Origin: an uncultured Sangeribacter sp.
GTDB taxonomy: Bacteria > Bacteroidota > Bacteroidia > Bacteroidales > Muribaculaceae
Direction of reading: 5' to 3'
Assembly: GCA_964480495.1 (NCBI GenBank)
Contig: CAYZPH010000002.1
Location: forward strand, 59,357 to 91,356
DNA: 32,000 nucleotides
Part shown: one piece after another, positions 2,372-24,530 of the stretch
Layout: each line of letters begins with the position of its first letter
How positions within the stretch are numbered: the stretch's first letter is position 1
Notes under the pieces: generated by a model
Databases searched by the model: none
What the model saw: only the letters and a program-made list of their open reading frames with translations
What the model was told of the DNA's origin: nothing
Made by a program: the position numbers and the translations under genes

Positions 2372-3490
2372 TTACTTTTTCTGGAATACTCGAACATAGT
2401 CAATCTCCATGGTGGTAGGCAGGCAGTTCTCATCAACACCCATGGCGCCACCCCAGTCTCCGCCCCATGCAAGATTCAGGATCGGATAAAAAGCACGATT
2501 GAACGGCCATGTGGATATATTACCCTTGCCATCGTTGGAGAAATTGAGAAGCATGCTTCCATCTACAAAAGTGCGGATGTAGTCTTCAGTCCACTCAAGG
2601 CGATAGATATGGAAATCATCTTGAGCACCTTTCGTGAGGCGTTCGGCAGTTTTCTGAGTACCCTTCACATGGTTGTAACTTTCACAGTGGATAGAAGAGG
2701 ACGTATATTCCGGATTATATCCGACTTCCTCCATTATATCAATTTCGCCACACATCGGCCAAGGTGTCTTGTTCCAGTCGTTGCCTACGGGCATCATCCA
2801 ATATGCAGGCCAAGTTCCTTTTCCTTTAGGGAGCTTAATCGACGCCTCGAAAATGCCATATTTCCATCCAGAATTGACATGGGCATATATCCTTGCAGAA
2901 CAAATTTTGCCATCCTTAGCCTTGAAGCAATTGATCTTAAGAGTACCATCGCTGACCTCAGTGACCAGATTGCCGCCATAGGCAGCGTTGACATAAGTCT
3001 GAAGTTCATTGTTGACCCATCCTGGTCCCTGCACTTCATAAGTCCAGTCAGCACGGTTAAGTTCCGAGCCATCAAATTCATCATTCCATACGAGAGTGTA
3101 TCCTTCCGGCTCGGTGATTGGACCTAATGGTATTTCCTTCCCTTCTTGCGATATTTTCACCTCTGCACGTTTCGTCTTACTCTGAACAAGAACTGATCCT
3201 GATCGCGAGAATCGTGAAGAATTGCTTTCAACTTCCACCCGGATTTCGCCTTTCGAAGATAGAGTACCAGACTTCGATACCTTAATCCAAGAATCGGAAG
3301 GAGTCGCATCCCATTCACTCGGAGCAGTAATACCTATAATTGCCTCACCACCGGAAGCTGAGACCTCCATAGTTTCTACGGACAATGAAATATCGGGAAT
3401 GTTATCTACTGTCGGCGTGTCTTCGGAGTTTCCACACGCAGTAATCGAGAGCAGTAATTGTGACAGTAGTAGTAAAAACTTAATATTCAT
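2372..3490 (-). CDS. Lipoprotein GH16 endo-beta-glucanase (laminarinase/licheninase type) with N-terminal BACON-like domain
   Basis: 372-aa ORF with lipobox LSITAC. The N-terminal ~90 aa are BACON-like (SASGGEA...SRSGSVLVQ...VKISQ). The GH16 catalytic motif ExDxxE is present as GEIDIMEE, followed by the typical YRLEWTEDYI and DYVRVF strands. Confidence 0.92.
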   Translation of the reverse strand: MNIKFLLLLSQLLLSITACGNSEDTPTVDNIPDISLSVETMEVSASGGEAIIGITAPSEWDATPSDSWIKVSKSGTLSSKGEIRVEVESNSSRFSRSGSVLVQSKTKRAEVKISQEGKEIPLGPITEPEGYTLVWNDEFDGSELNRADWTYEVQGPGWVNNELQTYVNAAYGGNLVTEVSDGTLKINCFKAKDGKICSARIYAHVNSGWKYGIFEASIKLPKGKGTWPAYWMMPVGNDWNKTPWPMCGEIDIMEEVGYNPEYTSSSIHCESYNHVKGTQKTAERLTKGAQDDFHIYRLEWTEDYIRTFVDGSMLLNFSNDGKGNISTWPFNRAFYPILNLAWGGDWGGAMGVDENCLPTTMEIDYVRVFQKK

Positions 3491-3491
3491 A

Positions 3492-3544
3492 AGAAAAAAA
3501 TACTAAGGAGCCGGGATTGCGCCAAGAGGCGTAATCTCGGCTCC
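3492..3544 (-). terminator. Intra-operon GC-rich hairpin plus U-run (attenuator/partial terminator) between the SGBP and GH16 genes
   Basis: The minus-strand RNA reads ggagccgagattacgcc-tctt-ggcgcaatcccggctcc, a 17-nt stem with 2 A.C mismatches. It is followed by ttagtatttttttctt, which runs straight into the GH16 ATG at 3490. Confidence 0.4.
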
Positions 3545-3559
3545 GAACCTACCTGAAAA

Positions 3560-4960
3560 TTAATCGTGATGTACCTGAAGTATTATGTTGCTTACTTTTA
3601 TTTCAGTATTGTCGGGGCAAGTGCCGAAGTCAAAGACCAAAGACACTGCCTGCATTGCTTGACCCTCGCTTGGAGTGAGTTTGGCACGCCAGAACTTGTT
3701 AGGGCCTGCAAGGAGAGGAGTTTCATCAGCACAGAAATAATTGTTGTCATGCTTGTTGTCTTCCCCTTCATCGGTCTGAACGAGCTTAACCATAACAGCC
3801 GGGACATCTACGTTCGACTCAATAGTGCAAGTGAAGTCATACTGCACTGTTGGGTCATCGATACGTATGTCTGTATTGAGTGCGCACTGAGCCTGCCAGC
3901 GCTCCGGAGCAGCTACTGGAAGAGTGAAAGTATATGTGCCTGCACCATCGTCAGAGAATGCTGGATCAGCAATCTGATTCCATCCTGGAGCATACCAGAA
4001 CGACGGAGTATAGGTCATGCCATAGAAAAGGTTGTCAGCACTGTCATAAGCCACCCAGTTTGGTTCCGGATCTGTTGGAATTTCCGGGAGCACTGTACCA
4101 TCATCATCTTTGTGGTTTTTAAGCACAATATTCTCGATTGTTATAGTCACTCCTGCCGGATTACCACCGAAGTCGAAAGTATAAACGAGATTGTTCATGT
4201 CTACTACTGCTTCAAGATCGGAGAAGAAGAAGGCAGCAGGTTCGTCGGCAGTAAGGTTAATTTTCTGATTGCAGAAGAATGAGTGAGAATCATCATCGTC
4301 ACCATCAGGGTGAATCTTCATCGTAATATTTTTCATATCTTTATTTGCGGTGAAGATCACGGATCCATCGTAGTGCTCACCTGCGGGGAGCGAGATATCT
4401 GTGCCTACATGCATCTGCGCCTGCCACTGATCAGTAGTCGCCTCCGAGAGGGTGACTGAGATCACGTCGGTAGAGAAGTTGTGTGTAGGATCAGCAATCT
4501 GATTCCATCCTGGAGCATACCAGAAGCTATTGATCTGATGATTAGACTTTGGCCAGAGATTATATTCGCTCTCGTAGACATAACCGGCGAAGCCATTCAT
4601 TCTGGTTTTATCTATTGTAAAGGTCTTGGTAATAGTGCCATTTGAAACGCCATTGCCGTTGCCAACCTTAACTTCGACGGTATATTCTCCAGCCTTACGA
4701 TAATAGCGAGAGAATGCCATGTTGGTAGAATACGGCTTACCATCGATGTACCATACCGGATAAGTTCCCTTGCCGTTGAATTCGAAGTAAGCGGTGTTTG
4801 TTTCTTGATCAACATTGATGCTGACCGCATCCACATACGCAGAAGCCTCAGGGACATCGTTGATATTAACCTCGTAGTAATCCTTTTCTGAGCAGGAAGA
4901 AATCAGCAAAGGCGAAACCGCCAAAACTGCTGCGAGGAATGAAGATATACTGGTTTTCAT
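3560..4960 (-). CDS. SusE/F-positioned surface glycan-binding lipoprotein (SGBP) with Ig/PKD-like N-domain and two tandem repeated beta-sandwich domains
   Basis: 466-aa ORF with lipobox LISSC, located immediately downstream of susD. It contains two internal repeats, each carrying SFWYAPGWNQIADP...(E/D)(R/Q)WQAQ...GTDI/NTDI. I recognise no catalytic motif. Confidence 0.8.
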   Translation of the reverse strand: MKTSISSFLAAVLAVSPLLISSCSEKDYYEVNINDVPEASAYVDAVSINVDQETNTAYFEFNGKGTYPVWYIDGKPYSTNMAFSRYYRKAGEYTVEVKVGNGNGVSNGTITKTFTIDKTRMNGFAGYVYESEYNLWPKSNHQINSFWYAPGWNQIADPTHNFSTDVISVTLSEATTDQWQAQMHVGTDISLPAGEHYDGSVIFTANKDMKNITMKIHPDGDDDDSHSFFCNQKINLTADEPAAFFFSDLEAVVDMNNLVYTFDFGGNPAGVTITIENIVLKNHKDDDGTVLPEIPTDPEPNWVAYDSADNLFYGMTYTPSFWYAPGWNQIADPAFSDDGAGTYTFTLPVAAPERWQAQCALNTDIRIDDPTVQYDFTCTIESNVDVPAVMVKLVQTDEGEDNKHDNNYFCADETPLLAGPNKFWRAKLTPSEGQAMQAVSLVFDFGTCPDNTEIKVSNIILQVHHD

Positions 4961-4972
4961 GATTCTAAGATA

Positions 4973-6490
4973 TTAATACGGATTTTGATTAAGTGTTTTT
5001 CCTGCGCGATCGATTTCGCTCTGAGGAATCGGGAGATATTTCTTGTTTGGAGTCCACGAGTTAGTGCGATAGCCGTATTCGTCAGGAGTTAGAACAGAAG
5101 CAGCCTTGCCAGTACGGATAAGGTCCCAGTAGCGTTTTCCTTCGCCAACGAACTCGAGATGACGCTCTTCGATGATATTGTCGATGGTCGGTTCGAGTTC
5201 TGTTTCAAGTCCTGCACGACGACGCACCTGATTGAGATAGTTGCGAGCGTCGGCAGTATTACCACCAGTCAGCACGATAAGTTCGGCAGCATTGAGAAGA
5301 GCCTCCGAATAGCGATAAACACGCCAGTTGTTATTGTAGTTAAGTTCTCCTGAAGCCACTTGTCCGGCATTTCCATCTGCACGTGCAGAGTATTTTTGAA
5401 GGAAGAAACCGAAATCCTGATAGCGCTTGTTGTAAGTGCCGTCAAACGAGCGAACATCCCAGCAAGTTGCATCACGTCGCACATCATTTGCAGAATAACG
5501 GTTATAGGTTTCGAGTCGCAGCGGACAGAATCCCCAACCAGTATTGTGTCCGTCTTGCCCGGCAGGCCAGTTATTAGGGCTAATGAGTGTTGGAAGCACA
5601 GAGCCACCAGCTAAGAGTGGGGCACCCCAATCTCTTGCAGCATTTTCCGAAATATAGTTGATCTCATAGATTGACTCTTGGCTCCATTCGCCAGATTCCT
5701 CAAAGATAGATGCGTAGTCTCTAACAAGATCATAGTCGGGAGAAGCGATAATCTCTCTCATGTATTCGAGAGCCTTTGCATATCTATCCTTATCGTTCTG
5801 ATACATCACAACCTCTGCATAGAGCATATAAGCCATGGCTTGAGTGATTCGTCCATATGTGGCAGCGTTGCCTTTCCAGGGAAGCACATCAAGAGCAATA
5901 GCTTCCTCAAGATCGCTGACTATATGTGAATACACTTGGTCAGCAGTCATCTGATCAGTGATGTATGGGTCGGTGAGATTTTCGGTAAAGTAAGGCACAT
6001 TACCATAGAATTTCCAGAGCCAGTTTGCATAGTATGCACGTAGCACGTATGTCTGAGCCTTCCAAGACTTGATATCACTTTCAGATGCTCCGATTATATC
6101 CTTGGAAAGATAGCTGAATACGTCGTTGCATCTTTTCACACCGCTGAAGCCGTCGATCCAAATGCTTGTAAGCACCTTCATTGGGGTAGCCTCATAGTTA
6201 GCTATAAGATGCCAAACCTGGTTATCGTTTTTGTCGGCACCACCAACCCAAAAATCGTCTGCCATAATGTCAGCCATAAGGGTGTATGGCTCATAGTTTC
6301 CCATGCTCCAATCTGTCCAGTGCATAGGGTCGTAAGCAGCCACAACCGCTTCTTCTACGTGGTCTTTTGTAGAGAAATATTCCGACGCGTCTTCCTGAGT
6401 CGGGGAAGTCACCGTAAGGAAATCGTCACCGCATGATGTAAGCGCAACAGCAAATGCGGCAATTCCCAACGCTTTATATATAGTTTTCAT
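4973..6490 (-). CDS. susD: SusD/RagB-family outer-membrane glycan-binding lipoprotein
   Basis: 505-aa ORF with lipobox LTSCGDDFL, located directly downstream of the SusC-like gene. Size and helical TPR-like composition fit the family, and the C-terminus is family-like (KYLPIPQSEIDR...NPY). Confidence 0.93.
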   Translation of the reverse strand: MKTIYKALGIAAFAVALTSCGDDFLTVTSPTQEDASEYFSTKDHVEEAVVAAYDPMHWTDWSMGNYEPYTLMADIMADDFWVGGADKNDNQVWHLIANYEATPMKVLTSIWIDGFSGVKRCNDVFSYLSKDIIGASESDIKSWKAQTYVLRAYYANWLWKFYGNVPYFTENLTDPYITDQMTADQVYSHIVSDLEEAIALDVLPWKGNAATYGRITQAMAYMLYAEVVMYQNDKDRYAKALEYMREIIASPDYDLVRDYASIFEESGEWSQESIYEINYISENAARDWGAPLLAGGSVLPTLISPNNWPAGQDGHNTGWGFCPLRLETYNRYSANDVRRDATCWDVRSFDGTYNKRYQDFGFFLQKYSARADGNAGQVASGELNYNNNWRVYRYSEALLNAAELIVLTGGNTADARNYLNQVRRRAGLETELEPTIDNIIEERHLEFVGEGKRYWDLIRTGKAASVLTPDEYGYRTNSWTPNKKYLPIPQSEIDRAGKTLNQNPY

Positions 6491-18286: not shown

Positions 18287-18336
18287 GCCCTCTAAAAGTT
18301 TTTTATCTAACTTTTAGAGGGCTCTTTATTTTAATA
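18287..18336 (+). repeat. Left copy of a perfect 50-bp direct repeat; doubles as a terminator hairpin after GH97
   Basis: The sequence gccctctaaaagttttttatctaacttttagagggctctttattttaata is identical to 23573-23622. It holds a perfect 14-bp stem (18287-18300 / 18309-18322), an 8-nt loop and a T-rich tail. It lies 62 bp after the GH97 stop. Confidence 0.9.
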
Positions 18337-18666: not shown

Positions 18667-20256
18667 ATGATTCTTGTGAAAGAAACACTGAATATAGATG
18701 ATTCCACTATAGTGAAGGAATGCAAGCATGGCAATCGGGAGGCAATGAGTCTTCTGTACACTCGTTATGCCCCAAGAATGTTGCGACTTATTTCCTTCTA
18801 CGTAAAGAATTCAGATGATGCGAAAGACATTCTCCACGATGGATTCATTGCGGCATTCACACGTATCGACACACTTCAAGACCCGGCAAAGGTCGATCAT
18901 TGGCTTGCAACTATCATAAAAAACCTCTCGCTAAAATTTCTTCAAGAACAAAGTGTGGTTTCATTACTCAATGAAATTCCTGAAGAGCCAAGCGATGACT
19001 GCGAAATAGACAATATAATTGATTTCGAAACCCTTGAGACTCTTATATGCCGTCTTCCTGATGGTTACCAGAAAGTATTCCGGTTGGCAGTTTTAGAAAA
19101 CAAGACGCACAAGGAGATTGCACAAATTCTTGGAATTGCGCCCAACTCCTCATCCTCACAGCTGTTTCATGCAAAAGTGCATTTGCGTAGGCTAATAATG
19201 GAATATAAGAAAACGGCAGGCACTCTCATATTACTTCTCATAGCAGTTGCAACAGAAACATATATTTCTTTTAACAACTCTGATTATGATGGCACAATGT
19301 CATCTAAGCCTAAATCTTTAGGAACTGCTGCATATCCGGTGGCACAACATACCAAAACATCTAGAATCGTAAGACATTCTCCCAACTGTCCAGCAACTAC
19401 TATTTCTGTTAACACATTCAAAAAGCAAGAATCGCTCATATCTATGTCTAGAAGTGAGCGTATAACTGCGGACACCATACCATCCTTGCCAGCAAAAACA
19501 GCAAAATACGATATAGATTCATCTTCAACCTATAATAACGACACGACATCTGAAGCCGAGTCTTCTCCAAAAGAGATTTTTGAATATCACTACAAAAAGC
19601 TGGATTATGAAAATGATATATCTGCAGACAATTCCTGTAAAAAAAATAAAGAAAAGGGATGGAGTGCCGGAGTGTCTTTTGACCCCGGAATAATAAATTT
19701 TGATAAATCTCTAAACGACGGAGAGTTAGCTGACAACGAACACATACACGATTACCTTAAATTTCAGAATCATAAAAATATGCTACCAATAACGGTAGGT
19801 ATTAAGATTGAGAAACGTATTACTTCTTGGCTTGGCATAGAGTCTGGACTTACTTATACATACCTTCAGTCTGATTTCGAATATCGCAAAAACCAAGCCC
19901 GATGTCAATGGCACTATATTGGGATTCCTCTGAAAGCGAATCTCTATGCATATTTATCATCAAAAATACATCTATACGTCTCTATGGGAGGCGATTTTGA
20001 AATTCCAGCATATTCAATCACAAAACCTATTAAGACAGAAAACGTTTTAGGTTATTCTTACGGAAAATTTAAATCTCCGGTTGTTTGGTCGCTTAGTGGA
20101 AGCGTTGGTATTTCCGTGCCCCTTTCACAGAAGATAGATATATATATTGAGCCTACTCTCAAGTATAATTTCCCTCACGACTATAGAGTGCCAAATGCTT
20201 GGAGCGAACACCCTTTGAATATTTCAATTCCTATAGGAGTACGTTTCAAATGGTAA
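18667..20256 (+). CDS. ECF-type sigma-70 factor fused to a TM helix, Ser/Thr-rich linker and C-terminal outer-membrane-type beta-barrel domain
   Basis: 529-aa ORF with four parts:
- aa 1-180 form an ECF sigma factor, with region 2 (DAKDILHDGFIAAF...VDHWLATIIKN) and region 4 (LPDGYQKVFRLAVLENKTHKEIAQILGIAPNSSSSQLFHAKVHLRRL).
- aa ~183-201 are a hydrophobic helix (TAGTLILLLIAVATETYIS).
- aa ~202-330 are a low-complexity S/T/K/D-rich stretch.
- aa ~331-529 show the alternating amphipathic strands of the OMP_b-brl_2/porin-like family (WSAGVSF, LGIESGLTYTYL, WHYIGIPLKANLYAY, LYVSMGGDFEIP, IYIEPTLKYNF) and end in an aromatic residue (RFKW). Confidence 0.8.
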   Translation: MILVKETLNIDDSTIVKECKHGNREAMSLLYTRYAPRMLRLISFYVKNSDDAKDILHDGFIAAFTRIDTLQDPAKVDHWLATIIKNLSLKFLQEQSVVSLLNEIPEEPSDDCEIDNIIDFETLETLICRLPDGYQKVFRLAVLENKTHKEIAQILGIAPNSSSSQLFHAKVHLRRLIMEYKKTAGTLILLLIAVATETYISFNNSDYDGTMSSKPKSLGTAAYPVAQHTKTSRIVRHSPNCPATTISVNTFKKQESLISMSRSERITADTIPSLPAKTAKYDIDSSSTYNNDTTSEAESSPKEIFEYHYKKLDYENDISADNSCKKNKEKGWSAGVSFDPGIINFDKSLNDGELADNEHIHDYLKFQNHKNMLPITVGIKIEKRITSWLGIESGLTYTYLQSDFEYRKNQARCQWHYIGIPLKANLYAYLSSKIHLYVSMGGDFEIPAYSITKPIKTENVLGYSYGKFKSPVVWSLSGSVGISVPLSQKIDIYIEPTLKYNFPHDYRVPNAWSEHPLNISIPIGVRFKW

Positions 20257-20341: not shown

Positions 20342-21469
20342 ATGAAAATTACAAAACTATGGATTTTAGCTTCATTAACGTTGTTGTGTCTTACAACGGC
20401 ATGCAATGAAGAACTTTCGGTTTACACCGACAGAAATCCGTTTAATGATCGCATCACAGAACTTATATTCGGAATGCACAGCAAGTTGCACGAGTGTAGC
20501 CGAGGTTCGCTAATTAGAATAACACGTTTGACGACTAGCTCTTACAATGTATCAGACACACTAACGACAAGGACAGATAGTCCTAAAAGCAATGACACTT
20601 ATGAAATTCACACAGTGGAAATAGACTTCGGAAATACATCAGGCTACGCAATACTTTCTGATACGCCAGGTATAGATCAAATATTCTACTATACAGAGGA
20701 TGGATGCATCGAGGATACTACATTAATACCCCCCTTGCGAGATTTGGTCAAAGCCATACCCGAAATGGCAAACGAAATATTAACAAATACAACAGAAATT
20801 AATACTAGATCTAGCGATAATGATATAAATATCATGCCACTTGTAAAGTATGAATGGGGACAAGGAGAACCTTTTAATAACTATGCCACTTATTGCACTT
20901 GTGAAGAGTGTAGGAAAATCGGGAATCACATGCCTATCGGGTGCGTAACAGTAGCTCTTGGTCAATTTATAGCGACCATGAAAAAATTCAATGGTACATT
21001 CTATGGCAACCGTAACATCGATTTTGAATCATTGCCTACTTGCCAGCGGGATTTTTCAGCAGAACAATCACTGGCAGTCGCTCACTTTTTACAAGAAATA
21101 GCATTGAACTGCCAAACGAAGTTCCGATGCGGCGCAAGTTCCTCAACATCATATGCAGCCACAAACTATCTTCGGGATCTAGGATATTCTGTAGATCAAG
21201 TGGAAGGGAGTATTAATAAACAGCGGTTTATCAACAATCTAAAAGTGGGAAATCCTCATATAGCATACGGTGTAAGTTCTGAAAACAGAGGACATATGTG
21301 GATTGTTGATGGATTTACAGAACAGAACAATGTTTCCCAATACCATATAAATTGGGGATGGGGATCCAGCAATGGGTGGTCTTCCTGCTACAATTACATG
21401 ACTATCAAAGATCCAGAAAAGACTTATAATTATTATAAAAACCAAGGGCACCTTTATTTTGGTGGATAA
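20342..21469 (+). CDS. Lipoprotein cysteine protease, peptidase family C10 (streptopain/SpeB, Bacteroides Bfp-like) with propeptide
   Basis: 375-aa ORF with lipobox LTTAC. It carries a propeptide-like block (GYAILSDTPGIDQIFYYTEDG) and the catalytic Cys context YEWGQGEPFNNY...PIGCVTVALGQF (Cys201). The catalytic His context is RGHMWIVDGF...YHINWGWGSSNGW (His318), closely matching the SpeB GHAFVIDG...YHVNWGWGG. Confidence 0.87.
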   Translation: MKITKLWILASLTLLCLTTACNEELSVYTDRNPFNDRITELIFGMHSKLHECSRGSLIRITRLTTSSYNVSDTLTTRTDSPKSNDTYEIHTVEIDFGNTSGYAILSDTPGIDQIFYYTEDGCIEDTTLIPPLRDLVKAIPEMANEILTNTTEINTRSSDNDINIMPLVKYEWGQGEPFNNYATYCTCEECRKIGNHMPIGCVTVALGQFIATMKKFNGTFYGNRNIDFESLPTCQRDFSAEQSLAVAHFLQEIALNCQTKFRCGASSSTSYAATNYLRDLGYSVDQVEGSINKQRFINNLKVGNPHIAYGVSSENRGHMWIVDGFTEQNNVSQYHINWGWGSSNGWSSCYNYMTIKDPEKTYNYYKNQGHLYFGG

Positions 21470-21518: not shown

Positions 21519-22751
21519 ATGAATAACAAAATAAGCAACACCTTGCATTTTATCTTACAGAGTGTAGTCATGTCAATAGCTCTGATAACAGTTGGATGTA
21601 GCGATATTGGAGATGCGAATGAATTTATATTGGAGACCAAAGCTCTGAGATTTACGGATGACCCAGATTTTGATGCAGAAGACCTCTACACTCCAGAATT
21701 CATATATGTAGATTCTTCAGAACAGATAATAACCTTACATTGCAAACCAGCATATAATGACATTCCGGCAATCCAGAAATTTTACTTTGCATTTCCAGAA
21801 CTTGATGAAAGTGAGGGGTTCTATCGCTGGATATACTATGGCATAGATGAATTCACTGACTCAAGCAATATGAAAAACGAATATTGTCACGTATGGAATG
21901 AAATTGAAGAAGGAGAACCTGTCATAAAAATAAAACTTAATGCAAACGATTCGGATACAGAAAGAAAAATGCATATTAATATTTCTGCCGGAATTATTTA
22001 TCAAACCGCACATGTTTTTGGACTTATTACCATCGTTCAATCACCAAGTAAAGACAAAACAAATAGTTTTGTTCTAAAAGCCAAATACAAAGGCCACATA
22101 TATACAACGGATACAGATATAGATACCAATGGATGTATCGTATACCATAATAATGAATATAGACAGATTATGGAGACAATAGACTTGAGTCCGTATATTC
22201 ATGAAGTAATAATGGACAATGACCTAATATATTATTATGACGATGAGGATATAGCGACCAATAAACCATTACAGGACTTGATGAACTCTGACGAATCTAG
22301 AAGTGAAACGAAAGAGGACAATACGAGATCCACTAGTTTCGAAGGAATCAGTTCTAATGACAAGGGATATGTGGCTCTTCACGACAATGACAATTTCGGA
22401 GGGAAATATATATCAAAAGGACTTACTAATTATCATTTCACGTGGAATCTACCAAATCTTAAAGATTATGGAATGAATGATAACGTCACTTCAATAGCAG
22501 TGGCATATAATGGAGAGGACCCTAATATATGCTCAGTATTGACCATCTGGGATGACTCTGACTACAATTTTGGAGACAACAGTAGAAAAAAGCACCGAAT
22601 AAGTATAATAGCATCAAAATACAATCAGTACACATCTGTAGCGGATTTAAAAAAAATCAAGAAAATAGGATCCTCTAAGTCATGGAATGACTGCATTTCA
22701 TCTATTTCGTTTCACTTTGGCTATACTGATAGATTATTACTTGATTATTAG
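21519..22751 (+). CDS. Lipoprotein of unknown function: BACON-like N-domain, middle region, beta/gamma-crystallin-like C-domain
   Basis: 410-aa ORF with lipobox ITVGCSD. aa ~36-175 are paralogous to the next gene and end in a BACON-type pattern (KIKLNANDSDTERKMHINISAG...GLITIVQS). aa ~283-402 contain two Greek-key-like motifs: VALHDNDNFGGKYIS...YGMNDNVTSIAV and LTIWDDSDYNFG...SWNDCISSISF. Confidence 0.65.
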   Translation: MNNKISNTLHFILQSVVMSIALITVGCSDIGDANEFILETKALRFTDDPDFDAEDLYTPEFIYVDSSEQIITLHCKPAYNDIPAIQKFYFAFPELDESEGFYRWIYYGIDEFTDSSNMKNEYCHVWNEIEEGEPVIKIKLNANDSDTERKMHINISAGIIYQTAHVFGLITIVQSPSKDKTNSFVLKAKYKGHIYTTDTDIDTNGCIVYHNNEYRQIMETIDLSPYIHEVIMDNDLIYYYDDEDIATNKPLQDLMNSDESRSETKEDNTRSTSFEGISSNDKGYVALHDNDNFGGKYISKGLTNYHFTWNLPNLKDYGMNDNVTSIAVAYNGEDPNICSVLTIWDDSDYNFGDNSRKKHRISIIASKYNQYTSVADLKKIKKIGSSKSWNDCISSISFHFGYTDRLLLDY

Positions 22752-22790
22752 AAACCTCAACAGATACAAACATATATTTATACAAGAAGT

Positions 22791-23297
22791 ATGAATCTGA
22801 CAAAAAATAAGTTATCTAACATTAGAGTAGCAATAGTTTGTGTCTTCATCCTTTCTTTCCTCGGAGGATGCTCTGATAACGATGATCTAATGATTGGATT
22901 TTTTCAAGACATCCGATTTTTAGATACCACACAGGAATGGTCTTCTTATACAGAGACAATTGAGATCGACTCAAAAGCTCAGACACTTGATTTTACTATT
23001 AAATTGATCGAACCAGATATATTTCGGCCTGAAGACATTACTTTTTACTACGCTACCCAATGGGATGAATTTTTTGAACGTTGGACAAACTTAACTGCCG
23101 TAATACAGACACCGACGACCAAAGATTTCTGTACGATCAGGAAATTCTGGCACAATGGGAACTTGACTATTCAAGTTTCGCTCCAAGCCAACAATACCGG
23201 AGAAAATAGAAAGATGCATATTCATGCTTATGGTGGTTTTTATTCAGGACACGAACGAATCGGCAATTTGGATATAACCCAAACCTTCAACGAATGA
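22791..23297 (+). CDS. Small lipoprotein with single BACON-like domain (paralog of the N-domain of the preceding gene)
   Basis: 168-aa ORF with lipobox FLGGCSD. QVSLQANNTGENRKMHIHAYGG...GNLDITQT aligns with KIKLNANDSDTERKMHINISAG...GLITIVQS of the upstream protein. Confidence 0.6.
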   Translation: MNLTKNKLSNIRVAIVCVFILSFLGGCSDNDDLMIGFFQDIRFLDTTQEWSSYTETIEIDSKAQTLDFTIKLIEPDIFRPEDITFYYATQWDEFFERWTNLTAVIQTPTTKDFCTIRKFWHNGNLTIQVSLQANNTGENRKMHIHAYGGFYSGHERIGNLDITQTFNE

Positions 23298-23572: not shown

Positions 23573-23622
23573 GCCCTCTAAAAGTTTTTTATCTAACTTT
23601 TAGAGGGCTCTTTATTTTAATA
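23573..23622 (+). repeat. Right copy of the perfect 50-bp direct repeat / hairpin
   Basis: Identical over 50 nt to 18287-18336. The flanking bases differ on both sides (c vs t upstream, c vs t downstream). Confidence 0.9.
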
Positions 23623-23677: not shown

Positions 23678-24262
23678 AAAATTGCCAAGAAAAAACATTT
23701 TGTATTAACTTTGCGAGAAAACAAAATTGCATTCGACATTAAGAATCTTCCAATCGTTTACTCAAGCAAGATAACTGTTCTTCTGTTTACAATGCCCGAA
23801 GAACTAAATGTTGGAAACAAGACAGAATCCTCGCTCGCGAGTATACTTGAAGGAACAACTATGCAGTAACAGGTTCTTGAACTATGTAACAAATGTGACA
23901 AATTAAAAGCGTCATCATATCGGGGAAAGTTCGGGAATAAGAAAAAAATAGCCTTGCAAACCATTGATAAATATCTCGTTAAAAAAACCGAACTATTTCC
24001 GAACTCTAAAAATCTCTTGACAAGGCAAATTTCGCACCCATGGGATTAGGGGAATCCCACACAATTGCTCCACAAAACATCGATAAGGATTGACTAGAAA
24101 GGGGCTGGACTCGCAGCTGTTACAGGAGGCATGGACATACAACAGCCTAACAAGTCAGATTATCCCAAAGTAAAAGTAGATTTCGACCGTCCATTTCTCT
24201 ATATCGTCGGAAACAACAAAACCGGAGCTATCCTGATGTCTTGCACAGTGATAGGATTCTGA
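23678..24262 (+). pseudogene. Serpin (protease inhibitor I4) C-terminal half, inactivated: 5'-truncated with three in-frame stops
   Basis: A single frame (codon starts at 23678 + 3n) reads ...FDIKNLPIVYSSKITVLLFTMPEE...MQ*(TAA 23867)...YRGKFGNKKKIALQTIDKYL...HPWD*(TAG 24047)GNPTQLLHKTSIRID*(TAG 24095)KGAGLAAVTGG...KVKVDFDRPFLYIVGNNKTGAILMSCTVIGF*(TGA 24260). The hinge/reactive-centre-loop pattern (HK..I.VdE.G.eAAAvTg) and the C-terminal serpin signature (DRPFLF.I.....ilF.G.v) are clear. No N-terminal half is present. Confidence 0.75.
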
Positions 24263-24290: not shown

Positions 24291-24330
24291 TGAACTGCGT
24301 CCCACAAGTTTGAACTGCACCCCAAAAGTT
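24291..24330 (+). repeat. Tandem imperfect 20-bp direct repeat
   Basis: tgaactgcgtcccacaagtt (24291-24310) and tgaactgcaccccaaaagtt (24311-24330) match at 17 of 20 positions. The second unit forms the left arm of the following hairpin. Confidence 0.8.
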
Positions 24331-24365
24331 AGACACAAAACTGTTGGGGTGCAGTTTTATTTATT
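24313..24365 (+). terminator. Rho-independent terminator downstream of the serpin remnant
   Basis: 18-nt arms aactgcaccccaaaagtt (24313-24330) and aactgttggggtgcagtt (24339-24356) pair with one mismatch. The loop is 8 nt (agacacaa) and the tail reads ttttatttatt. Confidence 0.75.
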
Positions 24366-24530
24366 CCCGACACTAATACTCGGTAAGTACTATAGCGCCT
24401 GGATAGACGAGCATGATCTGGTAGTCCATATCACAAGTGATTATGGTATAAACATTACCGATAAGCAAGGGGAACCGATTGTCTGCGGCACATGGCATCA
24501 ATCATGTGAAGGGAGTAGAATGATATAGTA

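What the first reader, a model, noticed from the sequence alone, without database searches (positions are those of the whole stretch)
21519..23297. Two paralogous BACON-like lipoproteins downstream of the protease, one with a beta/gamma-crystallin-like domain: candidate novel inhibitor or partner
From memory, in B. fragilis the C10 proteases (Bfp) are co-transcribed with small staphostatin-like inhibitors (Bfi). No such gene is present here.

Instead, the two downstream genes share a divergent BACON-like domain (…L.AN…RKMHI…G.L.I.Q). The longer one ends in a ~120-aa region (nt ~22365-22724) with two Greek-key signatures: NFGG…NDNVTSIAV and YNFG…WNDCISSISF. The beta/gamma-crystallin fold is used by a known bacterial protease-inhibitor family (I36, SMPI).

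This protein is therefore a plausible unrelated replacement inhibitor, chaperone or surface anchor for the adjacent protease. Gene duplication within the cassette also hints at diversification.
Basis: inference. Interest (0 to 1): 0.65.

Follow-up and report, generated by a model that had tools for sequence, protein, structure and literature searches.

The report
Crystallin-domain lipoprotein partner of C10 protease
A gut Muribaculaceae bacterium carries an imported gene cassette in which a streptopain-like protease is almost always paired with an unannotated surface lipoprotein ending in a calcium-binding crystallin-type domain, so this lipoprotein is probably the protease's dedicated guard or dock, though that has not been tested.

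Summary
ORFs 21519-22751 (410 aa) and 22791-23297 (168 aa) are lipoproteins just downstream of a C10 protease lipoprotein (20342-21469).

**Domains**
- The two proteins share a fast-evolving Ig-like N-terminal domain. Calling it BACON is weakly supported.
- The 410-aa protein also has a small alpha/beta middle domain.
- Its C-terminal domain (aa 280-402) is a true beta/gamma-crystallin with two canonical Ca2+-binding motifs. Motifs, profile searches and fold prediction all agree.

**Linkage**
- The three-domain protein lies beside a C10 gene of one divergent subfamily in 20 of 21 testable species genomes.
- Starting instead from the protease, 10 of 11 metagenome loci carry the partner.

**Distribution**
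- The family is small, with about 60 clusters at 50% identity, no Pfam model and no source annotation beyond "hypothetical protein".
- It is sporadic: 8 of 301 family genomes and 0 of 16 in the genus.
- It sits in a low-GC four-gene unit between two identical terminators, headed by a Dma3-like sigma fusion.

**Function**
Inhibition is unproven. The link to SMPI/I36 is only at superfamily level, and the partner stays intact at loci where the protease is broken, absent or catalytically dead. My best reading is a potempin-like surface guard or dock.

This scan has noted similar C10-lipoprotein cassettes on other DNA before. I could not test whether they are the same family.

The parts
18287..18336 (+). 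Left copy of a perfect 50-bp direct repeat. It holds a 14-bp-stem terminator-like hairpin (18287-18322) followed by a T run, and marks the upstream edge of the cassette.
   Evidence: the repeat finder; terminator scan; only these two copies exist in the whole genome.
18667..20256 (+). Dma3-like protein (529 aa): an ECF sigma factor fused to a transmembrane helix, a linker and an outer-membrane beta-barrel. It is the first gene of the unit and a possible regulator of the downstream genes.
   Evidence: Pfam Sigma70_r2, Sigma70_r4_2 and OMP_b-brl. Dma3 is described in PMC10927553. A 57%-identical homologue heads the related cassette in L013.
20342..21469 (+). C10 (streptopain-like) cysteine protease lipoprotein zymogen, 375 aa. 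Lipid anchor at C21, a divergent I69-like pro-region (about aa 22-165), and catalytic C201 and H318.
   Evidence: PF01640 E=1.5e-20. In alignment A3, C21 is invariant and C201 and H318 are nearly invariant. 3 of 22 subfamily members weakly hit Inhibitor_I69. It is the only C10 gene in this genome.
21519..22751 (+). Three-domain lipoprotein (410 aa), the protease's conserved partner. The signal peptide ends at C27, followed by the acidic stretch SDIGD.
   Evidence: 34 homologues. About 60 cluster representatives at E<1e-30, nearly all 390-420 aa long. No Pfam or NCBIfam family above cut-off. AlphaFold model pLDDT 82.
21624..22046 (+). N-terminal Ig-like beta-sandwich domain (aa 36-176). It evolves fast and is the part shared with the 168-aa paralogue.
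   Evidence: Foldseek matches are Ig-type folds only. Mean pairwise identity is 23%. Pfam BACON E=0.08, partial.
22062..22292 (+). Middle alpha/beta domain (aa 182-258) of unknown fold family, followed by a low-confidence linker (aa 259-279) that holds an invariant R270.
   Evidence: Secondary structure and pLDDT; conservation; no homology to the C10 pro-region by hhalign.
22356..22748 (+). C-terminal beta/gamma-crystallin domain (aa 280-402) plus a conserved, low-confidence tail TDRLLLDY (aa 403-410). This is the most conserved part of the whole cassette.
   Evidence: Mean pairwise identity is 54%, against 48% for the protease catalytic domain. dN is 0.033, against 0.353 for the N domain, in the closest pair.
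22476..22493 (+). First canonical Ca2+-binding motif, NDNVTS (aa 320-325).
   Evidence: motif definition N/D-N/D-X-X-S/T-S from PMC3551895.
22686..22703 (+). Second canonical Ca2+-binding motif, NDCISS (aa 390-395).
22791..23297 (+). Short lipoprotein (168 aa) made only of the Ig-like N-domain type (lipobox ...GGC|SDNDD). It is an optional third member of the cassette.
   Evidence: N-domain HMM E=6e-21. Equivalent short genes occur at L007, L013, L015-L019 and L022. An 89%-identical relative is the only close hit.
23573..23622 (+). Right copy of the 50-bp repeat and terminator hairpin, the downstream edge of the transcription unit.

Best explanation
The 410-aa protein is a dedicated, surface-exposed lipoprotein partner of one divergent subfamily of C10 lipoprotein proteases. 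The pair travels as a horizontally moving cassette.

Proposed mechanism (inferred, not shown):
1. The protease is made as a zymogen, lipid-anchored through the N-terminus of its pro-region.
2. Removing the pro-region frees the mature enzyme.
3. The partner's conserved, Ca2+-stabilised beta/gamma-crystallin domain captures the mature enzyme. This domain is held away from the membrane on a variable Ig-like stalk and a middle domain.
4. Capture at the cell or vesicle surface most likely blocks the active site, protecting the producer's own surface. This is how the potempins of Tannerella forsythia work.

The 168-aa paralogue is a stalk-only copy that arises repeatedly by local duplication.

Shown here: domain identities, gene linkage, conservation pattern and operon-like layout. 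Inferred: surface exposure, physical binding and inhibition.
For: Linkage
- The partner is next to a same-strand C10 gene in 20 of 21 testable species-representative loci, across differing flanking genes and gene orders.
- 10 of 11 metagenome loci found from the protease carry the partner.
- In 301 genomes of the family, C10 genes in general are in 279 but the partner in only 8.
- In that 301-genome search, the three genomes with a C10 at least 39% identical to the window's (G000 itself, G108, G270) all have a strong partner match. It is adjacent to the C10 in G000 and G108. In G270 the two lie on different contigs of a fragmented assembly.

Operon-like layout
- Gaps between genes are 85, 49 and 39 bp, with no terminator-like hairpin in those gaps. 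The scan's two other weak sites lie inside the Dma3-like gene.
- Identical strong terminators bracket the four genes.

Conservation
- The crystallin domain is more conserved than the protease's own catalytic domain: 54% against 48% mean identity. In the closest pair, dN is 0.033 against 0.114 and the domain's dN/dS is 0.02. This fits a conserved binding job.

Likely surface exposure
- Acidic residues follow the lipidated Cys in nearly all partners (SDIGD, SNNDD, SDESE, DKDD and others).
- This matches the lipoprotein export sequence (S-D/E3) that marks surface and vesicle lipoproteins in Bacteroides (PMC10927553).

Precedents
- Potempins are surface lipoproteins co-transcribed with, and inhibiting, their neighbouring proteases (PMC9890683).
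- Bfp/Bfi in Bacteroides fragilis (PMC2873492).
- The crystallin clan includes a protease-inhibitor family (Pfam I36).
Against: - No binding or inhibition was tested or modelled.
- Known linked inhibitors are small single domains of 98-132 aa. This partner has three domains and weighs about 44 kDa.
- SMPI itself was never matched.
- The partner stays intact where the protease is frameshifted (L005/L006, seen in two independent assemblies), absent (L017) or lacks catalytic residues (L028: Cys and His both replaced; L033: His replaced). This suggests a role that does not need protease activity.
- Weakly related Mid-plus-crystallin-like proteins of 267-299 aa sit next to TonB-dependent receptor and DUF4249 genes, not proteases.
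- There is no charge complementarity between the domains.
- The protease has its own I69-like pro-region, so latency is already provided in cis.
Confidence: 0.4

Rival explanations
1. Non-inhibitory dock or adaptor. The partner binds the released mature protease, or its substrates, and keeps an active enzyme on the cell or vesicle surface, in the way surface glycan-binding lipoproteins serve polysaccharide utilisation systems.
For: - The architecture (lipid anchor, variable Ig-like stalk, conserved distal domain) resembles Bacteroidota surface binding proteins.
- The mature C10 should lose its lipid anchor on activation, a point made for the Bfp proteases in PMC2873492.
- Linkage is as strong as for the main reading.
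- The partner is retained with catalytically dead C10 copies.
Against: - I know of no precedent for a protease-docking lipoprotein of this kind.
- In every experimentally characterised tightly linked protease-partner pair named here (Spi, staphostatins, potempins) the partner is an inhibitor. Bfi is only a predicted one.
Confidence: 0.25
2. Independent surface protein. The partner is a Ca2+-dependent adhesin or structural surface lipoprotein whose function does not involve the protease. The two genes merely travel together on the same mobile cassette.
For: - Microbial beta/gamma-crystallin domains are mostly Ca2+-binding stability modules in varied secreted proteins (PMC3551895).
- 3hzb, a crystallin-fold protein deposited as a 'carbohydrate binding protein', is a weak sequence hit (E=0.077).
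- The partner survives without a working protease at 4 distinct loci: L005/L006 (one locus seen in two assemblies), L017, L028 and L033.
- Distant relatives occur in non-protease contexts.
Against: - Linkage persists through changes of gene order (C10 before or after the partner), tandem arrays and many different flanking genes. Hitch-hiking alone does not explain this well.
- The association is specific to one C10 subfamily, although C10 genes are in 279 of 301 genomes.
Confidence: 0.15
3. Substrate or processing target. The C10 cleaves the partner at the conserved linker (invariant R270 in a disordered stretch) and so releases a soluble Ca2+-binding crystallin domain.
For: - An invariant Arg and a nearly invariant Thr (T269-R270) lie inside an otherwise variable, low-pLDDT linker.
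- The genes are co-located.
Against: - This is purely inferential.
- From my own knowledge, streptopain prefers a hydrophobic P2 residue, which Thr is not.
- It gives no explanation for retention with dead proteases.
Confidence: 0.1

Closest known systems
Potempins of Tannerella forsythia (PotA-E) with the KLIKK peptidases (PMC9890683)
   Same: Bacteroidota; a lipoprotein gene immediately adjacent to, and apparently co-transcribed with, a secreted protease gene; predicted surface location; one partner per protease gene. This is the best functional analogy.
   Different: Potempins are 98-132-residue single beta-barrels (OB-fold or eight-stranded) that lie upstream of metallo- and serine peptidases. 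Here the partner has three domains, 410 aa and a crystallin fold, its target is a cysteine protease, and inhibition is not shown.
Bfp/Bfi (Bacteroides fragilis) and Btp/Bti (B. thetaiotaomicron) C10 protease and staphostatin-like pairs (PMC2873492, PMC3462683); Spi-SpeB; staphostatin-staphopain
   Same: A C10 (or C47) protease gene juxtaposed and co-transcribed with a partner gene. Some Bfi proteins are predicted lipoproteins. Some of these loci sit on mobile elements.
   Different: Those partners are small lipocalin-like barrels or pro-peptide mimics. No staphostatin family was detected here, and the middle domain is not homologous to the C10 pro-region.
Microbial beta/gamma-crystallins (Spherulin 3a, Protein S, M-crystallin, flavollin, vibrillin)
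   Same: The double Greek-key fold, the Y/FxxxxFxG signature in the first motif and two N/D-N/D-x-x-S/T-S Ca2+-binding motifs. There are direct profile and fold matches.
   Different: The domain is about 123 aa against about 85-90 aa. It has family-specific conserved insertions (WDDSDYNxGDxxRxKHR; DLKKxKKIGSSKSWND) and a conserved C-terminal tail. It sits at the end of a lipoprotein and is genetically tied to a protease.
SMPI, Streptomyces metalloproteinase inhibitor (MEROPS/Pfam I36)
   Same: Same structural superfamily. It shows that the fold can carry an inhibitory loop.
   Different: SMPI was not matched by sequence or among the top 50 fold matches. SMPI targets thermolysin-type metalloproteases through a specific reactive bond, which has no counterpart identified here.
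BACON domain / SusE-F-type surface lipoproteins of Bacteroidota
   Same: An N-terminal Ig-like sandwich directly after the lipidated Cys, and a C-terminal-half motif N...R..I...G.V.I.Q.
   Different: The Pfam BACON match is below threshold (13 bits against a 25-bit cut-off) and is seen in 1 of 29 members. There is no polysaccharide utilisation locus context.

Membership tests
beta/gamma-crystallin superfamily (Pfam clan with Crystall, Crystall_3, Inhibitor_I36) | Two Greek-key motifs forming one domain (fold) | tested here: met
   AlphaFold model of aa 275-410 has pLDDT 87 and pTM 0.83. The top 12 Foldseek PDB hits are all crystallins (probability 0.99-1.00, E 7e-3 to 8e-2), and M-crystallin 3hz2 gives TM 0.71 on the target length.
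beta/gamma-crystallin superfamily (Pfam clan with Crystall, Crystall_3, Inhibitor_I36) | Signature Y/F/WxxxxY/FxG in the Greek keys | tested here: met
   The first motif is HDNDNFGG, and most homologues have YDNDHFKG. The second motif is divergent (WDDSDYNFG, one residue longer, Gly not conserved), so the signature is fully met only in motif 1.
beta/gamma-crystallin superfamily (Pfam clan with Crystall, Crystall_3, Inhibitor_I36) | Detectable sequence homology to known members | tested here: met
   The A2 profile hits Spherulin 3a at E=4e-4. The whole-library profile search reaches proteins with strong Pfam Crystall or Crystall_3 hits at E 1e-11 to 1e-6. The window protein alone has no Pfam Crystall hit.
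Ca2+-binding microbial beta/gamma-crystallins | Two N/D-N/D-X-X-S/T-S motifs | tested here: met
   NDNVTS (aa 320-325) and NDCISS (aa 390-395). Both are present in 23 of 24 domains. Motif definition from PMC3551895. Actual Ca2+ binding was not tested.
Peptidase inhibitor family I36 (SMPI) | Sequence membership (Pfam PF03995 above cut-off, or a match to SMPI) | tested here: not met
   The window protein has no hit at E<=1. 4 of 29 relatives hit weakly (best E=3.6e-4). SMPI is absent from the PDB sequence hits at E<=10 and from the top 50 fold hits.
Peptidase inhibitor family I36 (SMPI) | Inhibitory activity through a reactive-site loop | not testable with these tools
   Needs recombinant proteins or a complex prediction. 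Neither was available.
BACON domain (PF13004) | Pfam match above the gathering score | tested here: not met
   13.3 bits against a cut-off of 25, E=0.08, covering profile positions 22-60 only. Only 1 of 29 family members matches. The fold is Ig-like, which is compatible with BACON but not specific to it.
Staphostatin / Bfi-type C10-C47 inhibitors | A small lipocalin-like eight-stranded barrel encoded next to the protease | tested here: not met
   No Staphostatin_A or Staphostatin_B Pfam hit in any of the neighbouring proteins scanned. The predicted folds are an Ig-like sandwich, a small alpha/beta domain and a crystallin domain. Bfi sequences themselves were not compared.
Spi-type (pro-peptide mimic) inhibitors, I69 | Homology to the cognate protease's pro-region | tested here: not met
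   hhalign of the partner family against the C10 family aligns only the signal peptides.
Protease-linked lipoprotein guard (potempin-like system; a functional class, not a sequence family) | A lipoprotein gene adjacent to the protease gene, with conserved linkage | tested here: met
   20 of 21 loci and 10 of 11 loci, short intergenic gaps and no internal terminator.
Protease-linked lipoprotein guard (potempin-like system; a functional class, not a sequence family) | Specific, stable inhibitory complex with the linked protease | not testable with these tools
   No multimer prediction or assay was available.

The most novel reading that the evidence does not exclude
The C-terminal domain founds a new family of cysteine-protease (C10) inhibitors built on a Ca2+-binding beta/gamma-crystallin fold. 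It is displayed on a hypervariable stalk at the surface and on the vesicles of gut Bacteroidales. It would be a potempin-like self-protection system for streptopain-like enzymes, possibly switched by calcium and transcriptionally wired to a Dma3-type dual-membrane sigma fusion.
Probability: 0.3. Interest if true: 0.72.

Novelty: new variant of a known kind. Interest (0 to 1): 0.55.

Why it matters
C10 proteases are present in 279 of 301 Muribaculaceae genomes searched and are virulence or host-interaction factors in other bacteria (from my own knowledge). How gut commensals control them at their own surface is largely unknown.

This work defines an unannotated protein family, about 60 clusters with no Pfam model, that is genetically locked to one C10 subfamily. 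It also gives a concrete, testable candidate for the control element: a Ca2+-binding crystallin domain that is more conserved than the enzyme it accompanies.

If the domain inhibits, it would be a new inhibitor family for cysteine peptidases. As far as I know, it would be only the second use of the crystallin fold for protease inhibition. If it docks instead, it would show how a protease that sheds its lipid anchor stays on vesicles.

The cassette also places a Dma3-type sigma fusion, whose regulon is unknown, directly upstream of candidate target genes.

Tried and rejected
1. **Middle domain as a Spi-like mimic of the C10 pro-peptide.** By eye, LIYYYDDEDI...PLQDL resembles IFYYTEDGCI...PLRDL. 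The profile-profile comparison aligned only the signal peptides. Rejected.
2. **P0025 locus (L007/L008) as a counter-example without a protease.** The same arrangement in the longer locus L016 shows the C10 downstream, beyond the L007 contig end. Only L017 truly lacks it.
3. **Charge complementarity between the partner domains and the protease.** None found.
4. **Empty-site check in genomes of the same genus.** Relatives share only the GH97 gene, at about 73-75% nucleotide identity, and no synteny beyond it in the 1.5-kb flanks fetched. Inconclusive.
5. **Full-length fold search.** Swamped by Ig-like hits, including a TM 0.19 match to Treponema denticola C0362, which I regard as meaningless. 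The C-terminal domain had to be modelled on its own.
6. **Positive selection on the N domain.** In the closest pair dN/dS is 0.18, so this is relaxed or fast evolution but not demonstrable positive selection. dS is near saturation.
8. **Literature.** No paper in the searchable library links a crystallin-domain protein to Bacteroidales C10 proteases.
Full report
**What is there**

Between 18.6 and 24.8 kb the window drops to 34-38% G+C, against 46-50% on both sides. On the + strand this stretch holds four closely spaced genes:
- 18667-20256: an ECF sigma factor fused to a transmembrane segment and an outer-membrane beta-barrel (Pfam)
- 20342-21469: a C10 peptidase with a lipoprotein signal (PF01640, E=1.5e-20)
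- 21519-22751: a 410-aa lipoprotein
- 22791-23297: a 168-aa lipoprotein

The gaps between genes are 85, 49 and 39 bp, with no terminator-like hairpin in them. The scan's only other hairpin sites are two weak ones inside the first gene. One identical 50-bp element, a 14-bp-stem hairpin plus a T run, lies just before the first gene (18287-18336) and again after the last (23573-23622). These are the only two copies in the 2.37-Mb genome. The layout fits one transcription unit on an imported cassette.

**The observation**

Both target ORFs are real. Their N-terminal regions are paralogous: BLASTP gives 29% identity over 175 residues with E=3e-7, and an HMM of the domain built from homologues hits the 168-aa protein at E=6e-21.

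The AlphaFold model of the 410-aa protein (29-sequence alignment, mean pLDDT 82) shows these parts:
- a signal helix
- a beta-sandwich (aa 36-176)
- a small alpha/beta domain (aa 182-258)
- a low-confidence linker (aa 259-279)
- an all-beta C-terminal domain (aa 280-402)
- a floppy but conserved tail (TDRLLLDY)

The fold search with the whole model returned only Ig-type folds. The Pfam BACON match is sub-threshold (13 bits, E=0.08, half the model) and occurs in just 1 of 29 family members. The N domain is therefore best called Ig-like, with BACON-like as an open possibility.

**The crystallin domain**

Three independent lines agree.
- **Motifs.** The domain has HDNDNFGG (YDNDHFKG in most homologues) and two copies of the canonical microbial Ca2+-binding motif N/D-N/D-X-X-S/T-S. 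These are NDNVTS at aa 320-325 and NDCISS at aa 390-395 (definition in PMC3551895). Both motifs are present in 23 of 24 aligned domains.
- **Sequence.** A profile of the domain (A2) hits Spherulin 3a at E=4e-4 and flavollin (3hzb) at E=0.077 among all PDB sequences. Against 1.8 billion representatives it reaches, at E 1e-11 to 1e-6, multi-repeat proteins that Pfam scores strongly as Crystall, Crystall_3 or Inhibitor_I36.
- **Fold.** A separate AlphaFold model of aa 275-410 (pLDDT 87, pTM 0.83) has crystallins as its 12 best PDB matches (gamma-S, gamma-D, gamma-E, beta-A4 and archaeal M-crystallin). Probabilities are 0.99-1.00 although the E-values are modest (7e-3 to 8e-2), and TM is 0.71 on the length of M-crystallin.

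The domain is about 35 residues longer than classical ones because of family-specific, strongly conserved insertions (WDDSDYNxGDxxRxKHR; DLKKxKKIGSSKSWND).

The specific link to SMPI/I36 is not supported. SMPI never appeared by sequence or among the top 50 fold matches. The window protein has no I36 hit. The Pfam I36 model also fires on ordinary crystallin repeats.

**Is it tied to the protease?**

Yes, tightly.
- From the partner: homologues fetched by exact protein and 23 species-representative genome loci were mapped with HMMs for the protease and the three partner domains. A same-strand C10 gene lies within about 1.5 kb in 20 of 21 testable loci. Two loci sit at contig ends.
- The linkage holds despite unrelated flanking genes and changing order. 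I saw C10 then partner (then short paralogue), partner then short paralogue(s) then C10, and tandem arrays of C10, partner, C10.
- The one real exception, L017, has lost the C10 present in its near-twin L016.
- From the protease: starting from the C10 subfamily alignment (A3), 10 of 11 metagenome loci carry the full partner next door.
- The link is subfamily-specific. In 301 genomes of the family, C10 genes of any kind occur in 279, mostly in open frames of 550-1,300 aa (typically about 800 aa). The partner occurs in 8 (about 4 strong matches) and in 0 of 16 genomes of the same genus.
- In that search, the three genomes with a C10 at least 39% identical to the window's (G000 itself, G108, G270) all have a strong partner match. 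It is adjacent to the C10 in G000 and G108, and on a different contig in the fragmented G270 assembly.
- The window genome has this single C10 only.

**Evolutionary pattern**

Mean identities over 105 locus pairs:

| Region | Mean identity |
|---|---|
| Crystallin domain | 54% |
| C10 catalytic domain | 48% |
| Middle domain | 37% |
| C10 pro-region | 31% |
| Ig-like N domain | 23% |

In the closest pair (L016/L018), dN is 0.033 for the crystallin domain, 0.114 for the protease and 0.353 for the N domain. dS is near saturation, so the ratios are rough.

A tree of N domains shows that the short paralogues of L013 and L015 group with the N domain of their own locus (support 99/99). The stalk-only gene therefore arises, or is homogenised, repeatedly in place. 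The window's copy is very divergent.

**Likely location**

Nearly all partners have acidic residues right after the lipidated Cys, as do the window's short paralogue (SDNDD) and C10 (NEEL). In Bacteroides this is the lipoprotein export sequence that marks surface-exposed, vesicle-enriched lipoproteins (PMC10927553). Surface exposure is thus inferred, not shown.

**Mechanism**

The data establish a dedicated partner (I put this at about 0.85) but not what it does.

I favour a potempin-like guard (0.4). In this reading the conserved, Ca2+-stabilised crystallin domain captures the mature protease and probably blocks it. The protease should lose its lipid anchor when its N-terminal I69-like pro-region is removed (3 of 22 subfamily members weakly hit Inhibitor_I69; the anchor argument comes from PMC2873492). 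Potempins are surface lipoproteins of another Bacteroidota species that are co-transcribed with proteases and protect the producer's surface (PMC9890683). Bfi, Spi and staphostatins give further precedent.

Several points count against a pure inhibitor:
- The partner is large and has three domains.
- It remains intact where the C10 is frameshifted (L005/L006, two independent assemblies), deleted (L017), or has lost its catalytic Cys and/or His (L028, L033).
- Weakly related proteins (middle domain plus half a crystallin domain) lie beside TonB-dependent receptor and DUF4249 genes rather than proteases.

A non-inhibitory dock or adaptor (0.25), an independent adhesin that merely travels with the protease (0.15) and a processing substrate (0.1) therefore remain open. 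The substrate idea rests on the invariant R270 in the disordered linker. The idea that the middle domain mimics the C10 pro-peptide was tested and rejected.

**Context worth noting**

The 2024 paper confirms that Dma3 is a sigma factor fused to a dual-membrane-spanning anti-sigma architecture, with no known regulon or phenotype.
- A 57%-identical copy heads the related cassette in L013. The pairing therefore recurs, but in only 2 of the 33 distinct cassette loci I compared with the window's Dma3-like protein.
- Just beyond the right repeat lies a serpin remnant with three stop codons. Its last piece hits Pfam Serpin at E=4.6e-5.

**Novelty and verdict**

Protease-plus-linked-lipoprotein operons are a known kind. 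This one uses an unrelated, undescribed partner family with a Ca2+-binding crystallin domain. I found no paper on it in the searchable library, and the sources name its members only as hypothetical proteins.

Earlier notes of this scan describe similar C10-lipoprotein cassettes on other DNA (e1-3046335, e1-1975363, e1-1977115). I could not test whether they are the same family. None shared enough sequence words with this protein.

I rate it a new variant of a known kind with interest 0.55. The strongest open reading, a new crystallin-fold inhibitor family for cysteine proteases, has a probability of about 0.3.

Noticed in passing
window 18667-20256; L013 725-2302: A Dma3-like protein (ECF sigma fused to a transmembrane helix, a linker and an outer-membrane barrel) sits directly upstream of the C10 gene. 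A 57%-identical copy heads the related cassette in another Muribaculaceae genome, where the gene order differs (Dma3-like, partner, C10, short paralogue). The C10 cassette may be a target of this orphan regulator.
   Followed up: partly
window 18287-18336 and 23573-23622: Perfect 50-bp direct repeats, each a strong terminator-like hairpin, bracket the four-gene low-GC unit. They are the only two copies in the genome. A 60%-similar third copy lies at 24317-24366.
   Followed up: partly
window 23678-24262: Serpin remnant in one frame with three stop codons. The last 54 residues match the C-terminal end of Pfam Serpin (E=4.6e-5). It is a decayed protease-inhibitor gene right next to a protease cassette.
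   Followed up: partly
L028 2993-4147; L033 3433-4575: Full-length C10 genes of the same subfamily have lost catalytic residues. L028 has Cys replaced by His and His replaced by Tyr. L033 has His replaced by Tyr. Each still has an intact partner gene next door, so these may be pseudo-proteases kept as binding proteins.
   Followed up: no
window 22323-22328 (aa 269-270 of the 410-aa protein): An invariant Arg and a nearly invariant Thr lie in an otherwise variable, low-confidence linker between the middle and crystallin domains (consensus TRAxGFE). This is a candidate processing or recognition site.
   Followed up: no
window 22725-22748: The last eight residues (TDRLLLDY; family consensus xDRLLLDY, the aligned C-terminal tyrosine kept in at least 90% of sequences) are strongly conserved but predicted to be unstructured. 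This is a candidate docking peptide.
   Followed up: no
L013 2538-2963 vs 5403-5831; L015 1871-2287 vs 3319-3732: The short Ig-only lipoprotein groups with the N domain of the long gene of its own locus (support 99/99). The duplication is therefore recurrent, or the copies are homogenised by gene conversion. L007, L016 and L017 carry two short copies in tandem.
   Followed up: yes
L041 4740-5540; L042 4750-5550; L043 4662-5558: Proteins of 267-299 aa weakly related to the middle domain plus the first Greek key lie next to a TonB-dependent receptor (Plug domain) and a DUF4249 gene in other genomes of the family, with no protease nearby.
   Followed up: partly
window 20891-20911 (C10 aa 184-190): The cysteine cluster YCTCEEC just before the catalytic Cys is conserved across the C10 subfamily (C185 invariant, C187 and C190 nearly invariant). 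It may be a disulfide or metal knuckle specific to this subfamily.
   Followed up: partly
L005 3551-4764 (and L006): The C10 gene is split into two frames in two independent metagenome assemblies, while the partner gene that starts at its end is intact. Gene callers had truncated the partner to 327 aa, but the open frame gives 407 aa with a lipobox.
   Followed up: partly
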